Part shown: in pieces, positions 704 to 45,187 of the stretch
How positions within the stretch are numbered: the first letter of the stretch is position 1
Layout: the number at the start of each line of letters is the position of its first letter
Origin: Octopus sinensis
Taxonomy: Eukaryota
DNA: 64,000 nt
Assembly: GCF_006345805.1 (NCBI RefSeq)
Contig: NC_043002.1
Location: 109,926,001 to 109,990,000 of the forward strand
Direction: 5' to 3'
Made by a program: the position numbers and the translations under genes
The notes under the pieces: model-generated
Databases searched by the model: none
Seen by the model: the letters and a program-made list of their open reading frames with translations, nothing else
Told to the model about the DNA's origin: nothing

Positions 704-776
704 TCTTAGACTGCAGTTTCGCCTTTTCCAGCAATAAAAATAATATTTATTTACTCAGGTAGGCTCTTCAGTAAGA
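704..776 (-). ncRNA. Minimal type I hammerhead ribozyme (Penelope-like element associated)
   Basis: Minus strand reads TCTTA CTGAAGA GCCT-(loop)-AGGC GAAA CTGCAG TC TAAGA. Helix I is TCTTA/TAAGA, the CUGANGA and GAAA core is intact, helix II is GCCT/AGGC, helix III is a palindrome and the site is GUC. It lies in an AT-rich element (about 536-905) flanked by (TA)n. Confidence 0.75.
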
Positions 777-1032
777 TTCCTGTCATTATGAAACGCAACT
801 CGAGAGACACATGTGCGTCTACTAAATTGCTCTTTCTAACTAATCAGATCACTGCGCAGACGCAGAACGAACCCGACAAACTAGGGACTTCTGGTATATA
901 GTCTGGTATATATATATATATATATATATATATAATATATATATATTATATAGATAATATATATATATATATATATATATGTGTGGTGTGTGTGTGTGTG
1001 TGTGGTGTTATAAAAACACATATGTATATATA

Positions 1033-1455
1033 TAGGCACAGGAGTGGCTGTGTGGTCAGCAGCTTACTTACCAACCACATGGTTCAGTCTCACTGCGTGG
1101 TACCTTGGACAAGTGTCTTGTACTATAGCCTCGGGTCAACCAAAGCCTTGTGGGTGGATTTGGTAGACGAAAACTGAAAGAAGCCCGTCGTATATATATA
1201 TATATACATGTGTGTGTTGTGTGTGTGTGTGTGTGTGTGTGTGTGTGTGTGTCTGTGTGTGTATGTTTGTGTATCTGTGTTTGTCCCCCCACCATCGCTT
1301 GACAATCGATGCTGGTGTGTCTACGTCCCCGTAACTTAGCGGTTCGGCGTAAGAGACCGATAGAATAAGTACTAGTCCTGGGGTCAATTTGTTCAACTAA
1401 AGGCAGGGCTTAGCATGACCGCAGTCAATGACTGAAACAAGTAAAAGAGTTAAAG
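1033..1455 (+). mobile_element. tRNA-derived SINE (family with ACCTTGGGCAAGTG core and internal TA/TG microsatellite)
   Basis: Head GGCACAGGAGTGGCTGTGTGGT...GGTTCAGTC. Homologous pieces occur at 31331-31475, 32395-32990 (minus), 14500-14740 and 40560-40770. Confidence 0.7.
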
Positions 1456-1479
1456 AATAAATATATATATATATATATA

Positions 1480-2449
1480 CTAGCATTAAAGACCCGTCGT
1501 TGCCGGGTCATAGTGCTAGTGCATGTATATATGTGCATGTATACATATGTGTACATATTACATGTACATCTATATATATACATCTACACATAAAATACAA
1601 AATACAAAGTTATATCTTGATATCGCTAGTGATAACAATACTCAAAATATATAACAGACTGGAATTGTTAGCCCGTCTCTTGTAATTTCGATCAATTGTA
1701 TCTTGTCCTCCCTCTTGTATAGAAGTGTGGCTACAATCCAGCCTATCTCTACTTCGGGGGGGGGGGGCATTTAAAATTTTTCCACTTTGCAGGTTCGAGT
1801 CGAGTACTCCCTTGCACGCTCCGTTGACTCGAACCTTGCTTCTATTGTGGCGAATTTACCGCCTCTGATTAGATACCTTTCATAGTCGCACCAAGACACT
1901 TTTCGAAGTGCTTTCCTCCGTGTGTTCAAATCTTTTTTCTCTACATTGTATACTTTATAGACAATAGTCTTTTTTTAATTTAACTTTTTATTATCCATCT
2001 GGACTATTCCATTTTTGCACGCTAATCTTATTTTTAATTTATTCCCATTCATGTGAAACCACTTATTCATGTTCAAATCATTGATGCAATTTTAAACCAA
2101 TTGCTATTTTTACTTTTGTCATGTTACTTTAGTTTGATTTTAATTATTACTTACTACATATAATTCAATTGTTATTATTATTTTTATTGTTAAAGTGAAA
2201 GTATCTGACATAAAATAGAGAAACGTTTTTTGTTTCACTTTTAACACGTAATACTGAAATAGTGGGGAAGATATGATATTGCTATGGGCTCGCTCTAGGC
2301 AAGAAGTTGAACATTTTTTTGCCGATGACACTCCCCGGACCCTAAGTAAGGCAGGTGTAAAATTGAATGAAATTGGTTGTGTAGTTCTCAGCTTAGGAAA
2401 CACACAGACAGACAGACAGACACACATTCTCAGTTTATATATATAAAGA
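1480..2449 (-). mobile_element. Non-autonomous Helitron, complete
   Basis: On the minus strand it has 5' A|TC and a (TGTC)n tract, a 3' hairpin GACCCG..CGGGTC (1491-1509) and terminal CTAG|T at 1480-1483. There is no TSD and it is inserted in (TA)n. A homologous copy lies at 25830-27469. Confidence 0.8.
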
Positions 2450-2993
2450 TATATATATATATATAATAATATATATATATATATATATTATATATATATA
2501 TATATATATATATATATATATATATAATATATATATATATATATGTATGTATGTATATATATATACACACATGCATGCATTCATTCATACATAGATACAT
2601 TCATATACATACACACATACATAGTGACAAATACACAGATATAGAGATATAATATAAGCAATCCTTATGGTTAAGGAAACTAGAAAAAAATATAAATAAT
2701 CGCCGTCACAATATATTAAAAAGTCCATAAGATGAGTAATGGGTTTGCATGGGAAAATTAACAGAAATGTGTACAGAGATGCTACACCAGGAAATCTCTA
2801 GGAGAAACGAATTGCTTCATAACATGAGCTGAACAATGTAGGTTCGAAAGTTATACATAAGCTTGTTTCTGATCGACAAACTACGTATAAGAGGTTAAAG
2901 AAAAACAACGTTTTAGTAAAAAGAACACAGGAAGATCTTGGGTTGTTTTGGTCTCAGAGCTGGAATTAAAGGGAAGATTATTATCAGAAGGTA

Positions 2994-3535
2994 CAGGGTC
3001 AGGCAAAATGATCTGACACATTTGTAGGTTAAATAAAAGGCATTGTTTTTCGTTTCCTTTTCAGTTGCTGCCATGAATTGGACTGTGAGCATCGCGCTTT
3101 CATTGTGGAAAAGTTTATCAAAACAAACGATTCTGTAACTGCAACACAAAGAGCGTTCCGTTTGCACTTCAATCTGGTAGACATGATCCCGTACCAGCTC
3201 GAAACACGATCTTGTTATGGGTTACCAACTTCAGAGCTACTGGACCTGCATTGAAACGAAAATCAACCGCCGACCTCGCACCGCCAGAACTTAAAGATGC
3301 AATTCGTCAAGAATTCCACATGAAATGACCCGCCGAGTTATTGACAACTTTCGTGAACGCCTTCGACAGTGTGTGGACAATAATGGATCCCATTTGACTG
3401 ATTTAATTTTTAAAACATAATGAAACAAAATGGTATTATATGTACTTTTCAAAAATAAAAACACTTTTTTGTTTCTTTACTTCATTTGCCTTTTATTTAA
3501 CCTACAAATGTGTCAGATCATTTTGCCTGACCCTG
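2994..3535 (+). mobile_element. Tc1/mariner internally deleted DNA transposon
   Basis: Perfect 49-bp TIRs (CAGGGTCAGGCAAAATG...) with TA on both sides. A frameshifted transposase N-terminus (EHRAFIVEKFIKTNDSVTATQRAFRLHF...VPARNTILLWVTNFRATG, DUF4817-like HTH) is joined to the C-terminus (RRVIDNFRERLRQCVDNNGSHL); the DDD/E core is deleted. Confidence 0.9.
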
Positions 3536-43279: not shown

Positions 43280-43449
43280 GAATTGATACAACTGACCTGA
43301 AAATTGATGATGAGTCTATTGACACTGTAAAACAAGGCTACCTAATGCTGTACGAATGGTTCAGAAATTGTGATTCAGAAATACGGACACACAACAGAAA
43401 TACGGACACGCAACATTGATGGGATGTCAGTCATTGGACGCAAAGTGAA
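43280..43449 (+). pseudogene. Death-domain-like terminal exon
   Basis: T-tract and TAG acceptor. IDTTDLKIDDESIDTVKQGYLMLYEWFRNCDSEIRTH resembles the death-domain pattern I..D.....EQ.Y.ML..W. It is disrupted by a tandem duplication of CAGAAATACGGACAC. Confidence 0.5.
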
Positions 43450-43934
43450 TTTCCGTGTAACTGTTGTTGTTTAGCCTTGGATTAACCTTGACCAAACACA
43501 GACTTATGATCAAATACATTCCAGCCAGGACCATCATGCCTATTTCCAAAGAGAACCCACAACCACATTGTCCAATATGCCCTTCTGTACAGTGATATCG
43601 TGTGAATTTAGCTACTAATTCTAGCAGGTATATCAACCACATAGTGATCCCTTCACTGGTTTTGCTCCTTTGTTAAACATTCACATTTAAAATAAAGATA
43701 AACTTTGAAATGTTCATTTATTGTTGTTGCTGTTGTTGTATATCTAATCCCCTCCCTAAACAACCCCATTGTTATATAGACACCTTTAATATCTTCTGCT
43801 ATATTGATAATTATCTACCTTCAGTTTTAGCTGAGAGTAGAATGCCTGTTATATATATATTGATGTCTTTTCCCTTTATATATCCTATAGAGATAGTATT
43901 TCTATATAATACATGATGTATCTAAGGATATATC

Positions 43935-44520
43935 TCACTTTGTCCAAAGTGGCGGTGGTTGAATAAAAAATTCAGGGGGTGAGCGGGAGAAAATCATCTT
44001 CTTAACCCTTCATATTAAATTAGGATTAAAGAAGTAATTTATCGAAGCTCTTAATGTGGAGAGTAGCTGTTTCAAATTCATATGTTTGGCATTTCCTGTG
44101 TTATGATAAAATAACGGCTGGTGTTTTTTGATGGGTCACAAATCAGAAAGTTAATGAAATGCCAGACATTCTCGTGCTCGATGACTGATGTAGAAAAAAG
44201 AGCATGGGATTCATTTGTGGCTGTTGTGAAAGGATTTGTAGTGAGTGAAAAGGCTGAGAACTACAAGGATTTGGTGGAGATATTACTTGATAGCTATCAG
44301 CTTTTAGGCGGCGATATGAGCATAAAGTTTCATTTTTTCAAAAGCCATCTCAATGAATTTCCTGCTAATCTCTGAGACGCGAGCAATGAGCATGGTAAGC
44401 GTTTTCATCAAGATTAAGGAGGAGAGATATCAAGGCCAATGAAACACACACATGATGGCAGACTAATGTTGGAGTAGTTAAAGACACTATGTAGACATGA
44501 AACATTTGTGAGGGTCTCAC
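43935..44520 (+). pseudogene. Chapaev3-like (CMC) DNA transposase C-terminal remnant
   Basis: PLHIKLGL..F..AL, FDGSQIRKLM, EKRAW.SF..VV.GF...KAENY..LV..LL..Y..LG..MSIKFHF..SHL..FP.NL, EHGKRFHQD, EERYQG and MMAD.CW, with stops. The superfamily assignment is from recall of these motifs. Confidence 0.75.
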
Positions 44521-44657
44521 AAGTGGCAATTTGTTCCGTGAATATGATGATGGTTTGTGGTTTAGCCATTATAATAGAGAATTGACAGTATGTGTTTAGT
44601 AAACTTTTCTAAACTGACTTCATGAACTATACTGGAATGCAAGATATGATGGATTTT

Positions 44658-44945
44658 CATCATCATCGTTTAACGTCCATTCTCCATGCTAGCATGGGTT
44701 GGACGGTTCGACCGGGGATCTGGGAAGCCAGAAGGCTGCACCAGGCTCCAGTCAGATCTGGCAGTGTTTCTACAGCTGGATGCCCTTCCTAACGCCAACC
44801 ACTCCGTGAGTGTAGTGGGTGCCTTTTACGTGCCACTGGCTTGGAAGCCAGTCAAGGCGGCGCTGGCATCGGCCACGATTCGGATGGTGCTTTTTATGTG
44901 CCCCCAGCATGGAAGCCAGCCAAGGCGGCGCTGACATCAGCCATG
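44658..44945 (-). mobile_element. SINE or LINE-tail repeat (copy of 29120-29410)
   Basis: Sequence similarity to 29120-29410. Confidence 0.65.
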
Positions 44946-45095
44946 GATTATTGCAGTAGAATAACCAAGGAAATATATATGGATTTAAAGACTCTCATCA
45001 AAAGTAGTAATTTTTAATTTTTATTTTACATTTCAAACAAACACCATTTTACAATTTTACTATCATTCGATATATTATACAATATTCATATTTTA

Positions 45096-45187
45096 TATCT
45101 CTGAAGAGCAGAAGGGTTGTCTATAAATGCTTATCAATATAGGATTTCATTATAGGGACAACTCTTCTGCGAAACGATCGTAAGATG
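45096..45187 (+). ncRNA. Minimal type I hammerhead ribozyme with long helix II
   Basis: TATCT CTGAAGA GCAGAAGGGTTGTC-(loop)-GACAACTCTTCTGC GAAA CGATCG TA AGATG. Helix I is 5 bp, helix II 14 bp, helix III is a palindrome and the site is GUA. It lies in an AT-rich element (about 45000-45520) ending at a microsatellite. Confidence 0.85.

What the first reader, a model, noticed from the sequence alone, without database searches (positions are those of the whole stretch)
704..45187. Four unrelated microsatellite-associated non-coding elements share one hammerhead architecture with different helix III palindromes
Seen: motifs at 704-776(-), 12711-12830(-)/13574-13693(+), 18637-18682(-) and 45096-45187(+) have different helix I and II sequences. 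All keep the core and a palindromic helix III (CTGCAG, CAGCTG, ACGT, CGATCG), and none has an RT ORF nearby. Inference: a diverse, high-copy system of ribozyme-bearing non-autonomous retroelements in this cephalopod genome. Family-specific palindromes could restrict dimer (trans) cleavage to like partners.
Basis: partly seen in the sequence, partly recalled or inferred. Interest (0 to 1): 0.72.

Follow-up and report, generated by a model that had tools for sequence, protein, structure and literature searches.

The report
Penelope retrotransposon tips carrying hammerheads
The four self-cutting-RNA motifs are real but mostly ordinary: three are broken-off ends of protein-coding Penelope-type jumping genes and one is a short non-coding repeat that likely borrows their enzymes, and their palindromes, which likely let two copies pair up to cut, are shared between unrelated families rather than forming a private code.

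Summary
All five motifs are type I hammerheads with palindromic helix III (5 seen; 0.015 per shuffle). A descriptor finds 30,850 genome-wide against 454 for its control.

The reading 'four non-coding, non-autonomous elements' fails for three. B (13582/12822) is the 3' end of a Hydra-clade Penelope-like element (PLE) with intact 960-codon frames elsewhere. D (45101) is the end of a decayed Hydra-type PLE. C (18677) is the terminal repeat of a Penelope/Poseidon-type PLE; its hammerhead lies inside the reading frame, behind a tRNA-like head. Only A (771) is non-coding: a 399-nt tandem retrozyme; 33 of 35 insertions end at one site, in (TA)n. A PLE endonuclease remnant with a sixth, damaged hammerhead lies at 15535-16669.

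Palindromes are not family-specific: D's and B's recur in families with no detected similarity; helix I separates partners. Palindromic, dimer-cleaving PLE hammerheads are published, and this scan found the same on other DNA. The least ordinary part is C's tRNA-like head. No cleavage or expression was shown.

The parts
528..904 (-). Family A: 377-nt insertion of a 399-nt tandem non-coding unit (non-LTR retrozyme), inside (TA)n
   Evidence: 1-3 hammerhead tandem insertions and one array of about 20 units; fixed 3' end; longest stop-free frame 63 aa
704..776 (-). Type I hammerhead A: helix I UCUUA/UAAGA, core 771-765, helix II 4 bp within 44 nt, helix III ACUGCAGU, predicted cut after C709
   Evidence: helix I covaries in a relative (UCUCA/UGAGA, L319)
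12530..13219 (-). Family B inverted arm, ending at the family's shorter fixed 3' end
   Evidence: inverted arms end 293-301 nt after the core start in 9 of 9 loci that show one (20 examined)
12711..12830 (-). Type I hammerhead B in the inverted arm
13191..14057 (+). Family B main arm: 5'-truncated 3' end of a Hydra-clade PLE, followed by a microsatellite
   Evidence: 97-99% identical copies; EN frame ends about 2.1 kb upstream of the hammerhead; 960-codon frames in L339 and L342
13574..13693 (+). Type I hammerhead B: helix I 2 bp then an internal loop, 85-nt helix II region, helix III ACAGCUGU, GUC triplet
   Evidence: 339 genomic matches to a 24-nt pattern, all 100 listed with the same palindrome
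15535..16669 (+).
   Evidence: relatives with 865-923-codon RT+EN frames
16526..16606 (+). Sixth hammerhead with a damaged core (CUUAAGA) and helix III ACAUGUGU
   Evidence: intact in other copies
18579..18727 (-). Family C: 127-nt truncated terminal-repeat fragment of a Penelope/Poseidon-type PLE, with an inverted tail (18690-18717), between 11-bp direct repeats (18579-18589, 18717-18727)
18637..18682 (-). Minimal hammerhead C: helix I GCAC/GUGU, unpaired A before helix II, helix III ACGU, GUU triplet; one C-A mismatch in helix II of this copy
   Evidence: 1,559 genomic matches to a 35-nt pattern, control 0
44943..45403 (+). Family D: 5'-truncated 3' end of an older, decayed Hydra-type PLE
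   Evidence: RT and EN remnants followed by D sequence in L167 and L178; linker remnant in L126/L158
45096..45187 (+). Type I hammerhead D: helix I 5 bp, 63-nt helix II region with 15 bp, helix III ACGAUCGU, GUA triplet
   Evidence: 214 genomic matches to a 23-nt pattern

Best explanation
The motifs are type I hammerheads in the ends of Penelope-like retrotransposons: B, D and an extra element E are truncated 3' ends of Hydra-type elements, C is a terminal-repeat fragment of a Penelope/Poseidon-type element, and A is a non-coding tandem repeat that is likely copied by a Hydra-type enzyme. Shown: joins to RT and GIY-YIG frames for B, C, D and E; fixed 3' ends, ragged 5' ends, inverted arms and (TA)n targets. 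Inferred from Frangieh 2024: the element's protein nicks AT-rich DNA and starts reverse transcription at one or two fixed sites inside its RNA; early stops leave 5'-truncated tips that carry the hammerhead but no gene. Inferred from Cervera 2014 and reviews: helix III is too weak within one copy, so two copies in a tandem transcript pair their palindromes and cut slowly or with protein help. For A, cDNA runs through the predicted cut site and often past one unit, so the template would be a circle or an uncut multimer. Like-with-like cutting would follow from helix I plus helix III as a by-product of divergence.
For: B: frames of 960 codons with RWR, DKT, YRDD in L339 and L342; L342 has same-strand B hammerheads on both sides, 5.57 kb apart, plus an inverted one; linker CNCRNKNKC and CxxC/CxH in the EN, as defined for Hydra. 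D: RT and EN remnants followed by D sequence. C: a 390-codon frame runs through hammerhead and tail into GLSF, ADKG, YGLPKIHK; head-hammerhead-ORF order in L260, RT-EN-head-hammerhead order in L261, L267, L273. A: 33 of 35 independent insertions end at one site, 31 are followed by TA, 28 exceed one unit, 12 hold 2-3 hammerheads. Palindromes: 77 of 99 readable descriptor hits against 1 in 16 by chance (hand tally). Related lineages differ by paired changes: ACUGCAGU vs ACCGCGGU at 69% identity over 150 nt, ACGAUCGU vs ACAAUUGU at 81%. Monomer 2-bp hairpins score +2.4 to +2.9 kcal/mol, homoduplexes of A, B and D -10 to -11.
Against: No cleavage, dimer, circle or transcript was shown. No coding parent was found for A (50 loci, none extends past the unit), so its enzyme is inferred from target and end pattern only. 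No tree was built; clades rest on motifs. Pfam finds no family in the B, C or E frames. B (5.6 kb) is longer than described Hydra elements (under 3 kb) and E lacks the CxCX5C linker. No intact D frame was seen. A's loci were selected for holding the hammerhead region, which biases lengths upward. Some palindrome changes are CpG transitions, which mutation alone can make: 22 of 30 non-canonical D copies among 100 listed. In the anole PLE the hammerhead was dispensable for insertion in vitro, so its role is open.
Confidence: 0.88

Rival explanations
1. The palindromes are a selected partner code: each family keeps its own word so that co-expressed families cut only their own kind.
For: The window's four words are mutually incompatible: heteroduplexes -4.6 kcal/mol or weaker against -10 to -11 for homoduplexes of A, B and D. 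Related lineages switch words by paired changes.
Against: Only 16 perfect words exist. D's word occurs in at least two further sequence groups with no BLAST match to D (L308/L311/L312/L314 and L310/L313), B's in three unmatched loci (L315-L317). Helix I already blocks cross-pairing: 0-1 contiguous pairs between D and six non-D loci with the same word. Craig File S2 lists five Hydra magnipapillata families with the same stem III. Tandem copies pair in cis, so trans choice may never arise (inference).
Confidence: 0.1
2. All four are independent non-autonomous retrozymes or SINEs; C is a tRNA-derived SINE with a hammerhead tail.
For: A fits. Most C copies are short, begin in or near a tRNA-like head and stop at the tail; the schistosome promoter-plus-hammerhead SINEs are a precedent (review passage).
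Against: B, C and D sequences are continuous with RT/EN frames; C's hammerhead is in frame with the start of the ORF, as in the anole PLE. Short C copies may still spread as SINE-like derivatives.
Confidence: 0.05
3. The 8-nt motifs cut as monomers (2-bp stem plus tetraloop, helped by loop contacts or protein), and the palindrome is only the trace of that hairpin.
For: Axolotl and invertebrate retrozymes with 2-bp stem III show some monomer cleavage (passages).
Against: A hairpin does not need the four loop bases to be self-complementary, yet 77 of 99 are; C has no room for a hairpin.
Confidence: 0.2

Closest known systems
Hydra-clade PLEs, including Hydra-1_Obim (Craig et al. 2021, PMC8557442; seen: passages, section 11, supplement passages and part 2 of 59)
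   Same: C-terminal GIY-YIG, RW-x and DKT motifs, CxCX5C linker (B, D remnant), CxxC/CxH, (TA)n targets, 3' hammerheads whose self-complementary stem III varies by family (File S2).
   Different: B is 5.6 kb with a 960-codon frame and a 2.1-kb 3' UTR; helix II regions are 44-85 nt against about 10-25 nt in File S2; B, D and E hammerheads differ from the listed Hydra-1_oBim motif; E lacks the linker.
Minimal and palindromic PLE hammerheads (Cervera and de la Pena 2014, PMC4209133; seen: parts 1-2 of 4)
   Same: Many sequence families per genome, palindromic helix III, unpaired base before helix II, single or opposite-strand copies from truncated PLEs, proposed dimer cleavage.
   Different: A, B and D have 8-nt palindromes and long helix II; no cephalopod appears in the parts read.
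Poseidon PLE of Anolis carolinensis, PAc (Frangieh et al. 2024, PMC11167929; seen: abstract and main text)
   Same: Hammerhead overlapping the ORF start, a tail set by two internal RT start sites, AT-rich targets (family C; two fixed ends also in B).
   Different: C's repeat starts with a tRNA-like head and an (AAT)n tract, not described for PAc in the text read.
Metazoan non-LTR retrozymes (Cervera and de la Pena 2020, PMC7229834, passages; Li et al. 2026, bioRxiv 10.64898/2026.07.22.740005, abstract and section 14)
   Same: A: 399-nt, 33% GC, non-coding tandem unit with one type I hammerhead; proposed PLE origin.
   Different: Circular RNA not shown for A; its parent pLTR not found; fixed internal 3' end and (TA)n target documented here.

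Membership tests
Type I hammerhead ribozyme | CUGANGA and GAAA cores, NUH triplet, helices I-III | tested here: met
   all five motifs; E's window copy has a damaged core
Type I hammerhead ribozyme | Self-cleavage | not testable with these tools
   no assay; only contigs of runs guessed to be RNA were available
EN+ Penelope-like element (B, C, D, E) | RT and GIY-YIG in one frame joined to the hammerhead-bearing end | tested here: met
   B intact; E intact; C in broken copies; D remnants only
EN+ Penelope-like element (B, C, D, E) | 5' truncation, pLTRs, inverted 5'-truncated arm, optional tail | tested here: met
EN+ Penelope-like element (A) | RT and GIY-YIG frame | tested here: not met
   longest stop-free frame 63 aa; no link in 50 loci
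Hydra clade (B, D, E) | RWK-like and DKT motifs | tested here: met
   B: RWR, DKT; E: RWL, DKT; not seen in D remnants
Hydra clade (B, D, E) | CxCX5C linker and CxxC/CxH in the EN | tested here: inconclusive
   linker present in B and D remnant, absent in E; CxxC/CxH present in B and E
Hydra clade (B, D, E) | Placement in the clade on an RT tree | not tested
   no tree built
Penelope/Poseidon clade (C) | GxKF/Y-like and DKG motifs, no linker zinc finger, two cysteines inside GIY-YIG | tested here: met
   GLSF and ADKG; no linker, IPCSC-type motif in broken copies
Naiad clade | N-terminal endonuclease | tested here: not met
   EN is C-terminal in B, C, D and E
Non-LTR retrozyme (A) | 150-450-nt low-GC non-coding tandem unit with one type I hammerhead | tested here: met
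   399 nt, 33% GC, tandems and one long array
Non-LTR retrozyme (A) | Expression as linear and circular monomers | not testable with these tools
   no raw RNA reads
tRNA-derived SINE (C) | tRNA-like head with A and B boxes | tested here: inconclusive
   box-like motifs visible (box consensus recalled); ARAGORN of 10 heads at a relaxed threshold and one gene in 20 loci at default; no Rfam tRNA match
tRNA-derived SINE (C) | Non-coding element separate from its partner | tested here: not met
   head and hammerhead flank the RT-EN frame

The most novel reading that the evidence does not exclude
Family C is a protein-coding Penelope element driven by RNA polymerase III from a captured tRNA head in its terminal repeat, so one element makes its messenger with the small-RNA polymerase and throws off thousands of SINE-like copies of its own hammerhead tip. 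Support: head-hammerhead-ORF order; 9 runs of four or more T on the sense strand of seven C segments against about 27 expected from base shuffles, while three Hydra-type segments show 36 against 24 (decayed, related copies, only 1 of 7 significant alone). The scan reached this reading before on other DNA.
Probability: 0.4. Interest if true: 0.65.

Novelty: new member of a known kind. Interest (0 to 1): 0.3.

Why it matters
As posed, the finding adds members to known classes. Three things are usable. First, scale: at least 30,850 hammerhead-shaped motifs with long helix II in one genome, of a form that Rfam did not report in the matches shown for this window. Second, natural series of palindromes and helix I variants make partner choice in dimeric hammerheads directly testable, and B offers an intact, young PLE for asking what the hammerhead does in transposition, which is open. 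Third, if C is transcribed by polymerase III it would be an unusual way to express a retrotransposon protein and a visible route from an autonomous element to a SINE.

Tried and rejected
Rfam: no hammerhead among the matches shown for the window or for three C loci. Pfam: no family for B, C, E frames. A genome search with the Pfam GIY-YIG family gave other PLE endonucleases; none of 30 loci carried A-E sequence. Naiad identity: considered because Naiads lack canonical hammerheads; rejected, the EN is C-terminal. Nematis/Neptune identity: dropped for Hydra on motifs. C as a stand-alone SINE: my reading until, then rejected. Expression: no RNA holder listed; contigs of four runs guessed to be RNA cover A patchily and say nothing on transcription, ends or circles. 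A compensated palindrome subfamily in D (ACUAUAGU): one locus only, none among 100 listed. The RT at 23115-25070 is a LINE-type RVT_1 and no PLE query matched it. Rows dropped: 15 of 50 A loci overlapped the same insertions; 1 of 100 descriptor rows was cut before helix III. Lunse et al. 2016 could not be read (title seen in reference lists only), so whether it already discusses partner specificity is open. Literature searches gave no paper on these families or on a tRNA-headed PLE; the library lacks most subscription journals, Repbase was not searched, and the supplements of the 2026 preprint were not seen.
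Full report
Observation. Each has the CUGANGA and GAAA cores, an NUH triplet and a palindromic helix III. A type I descriptor finds exactly these five; 200 block-wise dinucleotide shuffles gave a mean of 0.015 and never more than one. The two motifs at 12711-12830 and 13574-13693 are mirror arms of one insertion. Genome-wide, the pattern core, 35-65 nt, GAAAC-NNNN-GT-A/C has 30,850 matches against 454 for the reversed control. In the first 100 listed (6.8 Mb of one contig, copies not independent), 77 of 99 readable rows have a perfect palindrome by hand tally; chance is 1 in 16. 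Microsatellite adjacency holds for A and B only.

Family B. Copies are 97-99% identical and share sequence for kilobases upstream. There lies a frame ending in a GIY-YIG endonuclease with a CxCX5C linker and CxxC/CxH motifs. Two loci hold intact 960-codon frames with RWR, DKT and YRDD. One of them, L342, has a B hammerhead on the same strand on each side, 5.57 kb apart, and an inverted one beyond. These motifs define the Hydra clade of PLEs (Craig 2021, section 11). Inverted arms end 293-301 nt after the core in 9 of 9 loci that show one, about 180 nt short of the main arm. The window copy is a 5'-truncated end with such an arm.

Family D. Copies are 82-94% identical with ragged 5' ends. Walking upstream reaches a CxCX5C linker remnant and RT and EN remnants followed by D sequence in L167 and L178. 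No intact frame was seen. Of 100 listed copies 70 keep the palindrome and 22 of the other 30 are CpG-type transitions (hand tally), as expected of decaying copies.

Family C. A 35-nt pattern has 1,559 matches and the tail 2,153, controls 0. Short copies run from a tRNA-like head through (AAT)n to the hammerhead and tail, often as inverted pairs, which first suggested a SINE. Earlier scan notes pointed to a coding parent, so I tested it: 15 long-frame candidates of 150 scored were fetched, and one, L223, carries a 390-codon frame that runs through hammerhead and tail into GLSF, ADKG and YGLPKIHK. Among 20 further loci, L260 reads head, hammerhead, ORF, and L261, L267 and L273 read RT, EN, head, hammerhead. 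C is thus the terminal repeat of a Penelope/Poseidon-type PLE, with the hammerhead in the ORF start as in the anole element PAc. The window copy is a 127-nt tip with an inverted tail between 11-bp direct repeats. The head's tRNA likeness is weak by ARAGORN and Rfam. T-runs are scarce on C's sense strand (9 against about 27 in seven segments) but not in Hydra-type segments; this fits polymerase III transcription without proving it.

Family A. A 399-nt, 33% GC unit without a frame over 63 codons, 127 exact 20-mer matches, in tandems and one array of about 20. Of 35 independent insertions, 33 end about 175-180 nt after the predicted cut, 31 are followed by TA, 28 exceed one unit and 12 hold two or three hammerheads (loci were chosen for holding the hammerhead region). 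A cut linear monomer could give only about 180 nt of cDNA from that start, so the template would be a circle or an uncut multimer (inference). This is a non-LTR retrozyme (Cervera 2020); a 2026 preprint derives such elements from PLE terminal repeats. No parent was found.

A sixth motif. The GIY-YIG remnant at 15537-15887 is the end of family E, whose relatives have 865-923-codon frames. Its hammerhead at about 16526-16606 has a damaged core.

The palindrome as a code. The window's words are mutually incompatible, but only 16 perfect 8-nt words are possible. I fetched 20 of the 100 listed descriptor hits, chosen to cover shared words. D's word occurs in two further sequence groups with no BLAST match to D, and B's in three unmatched loci; D forms 0-1 helix I pairs with six such loci. 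In a double hammerhead the 5' arm of helix I of one copy must pair with the 3' arm of the other (inference from the dimer model), so helix I filters partners anyway. Craig's File S2 already lists family-varying self-complementary stems III, five Hydra magnipapillata families sharing one. What the data do support is conservation of self-complementarity: related lineages differ by paired changes, and monomer hairpins are unfavourable while homoduplexes are stable. CpG decay could account for some of these changes.

Mechanism. Shown: the joins to RT-EN frames, fixed ends, inverted arms and targets. Inferred: nicking of AT-rich DNA and internal priming at fixed RNA sites (Frangieh 2024); dimer cleavage in tandem transcripts, slow or protein-assisted (Cervera 2014; review passages). 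Not shown: any cleavage, circle or transcript.

Verdict. Real motifs, known biology: new Hydra- and Poseidon-type PLE families and one retrozyme. The scan reported the same kinds on other DNA of this genome; none near this window. The organism was not identified here. Interest 0.3.

Noticed in passing
window 47730-64000: A 36-bp satellite of about 440 copies at 94-98% identity, reading as long repetitive open frames on both strands; it starts directly in a unique-sequence frame at 47750.
   Followed up: no
window 23115-25070 (-): LINE-type reverse transcriptase remnant (Pfam RVT_1, E 8e-16), broken into two frames.
   Followed up: partly
window 35093-36640 (+): Gag-like frame with a CCHC zinc knuckle (Pfam, E 2e-6) and an integrase-like fragment: an LTR retroelement remnant. 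Observed only.
   Followed up: partly
window 33462-34359: 203-nt inverted repeat at 99%, 492 nt apart: possible MITE or another two-armed insertion.
   Followed up: no
window 4223-4460 and 11092-12054: A unit of about 196 nt in tandem at 11092-12054 with an inverted copy at 4223 and a partial one at 19665; no hammerhead by my descriptor.
   Followed up: no
window 14872-14935 (+): A CTGATGA core followed by a purine run inside a dispersed repeat, without a GAAAC partner: perhaps another decayed hammerhead.
   Followed up: no
L097-L100: Family E lacks the CxCX5C linker thought to aid (TA)n targeting, yet its window copy starts 2 nt from a TA tract; E and B frames carry long Asn/Ser-rich inserts absent from metagenomic homologs.
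   Followed up: partly
L318, L319, L324, L325: Relatives of retrozyme A at 69-81% identity with periods of about 399, 404 and 444 nt; helix I and helix III change by paired substitutions.
   Followed up: partly
L015:1030, L163, L260:6417: Hammerheads with a 12-nt palindrome or 9-nt odd-length helix III exist too.
   Followed up: no
L101 (G000:C9:51659327-51666953): In the long array of A the core reads CCGAAGA in 16 of 17 units shown: a core variant amplified in tandem.
   Followed up: no
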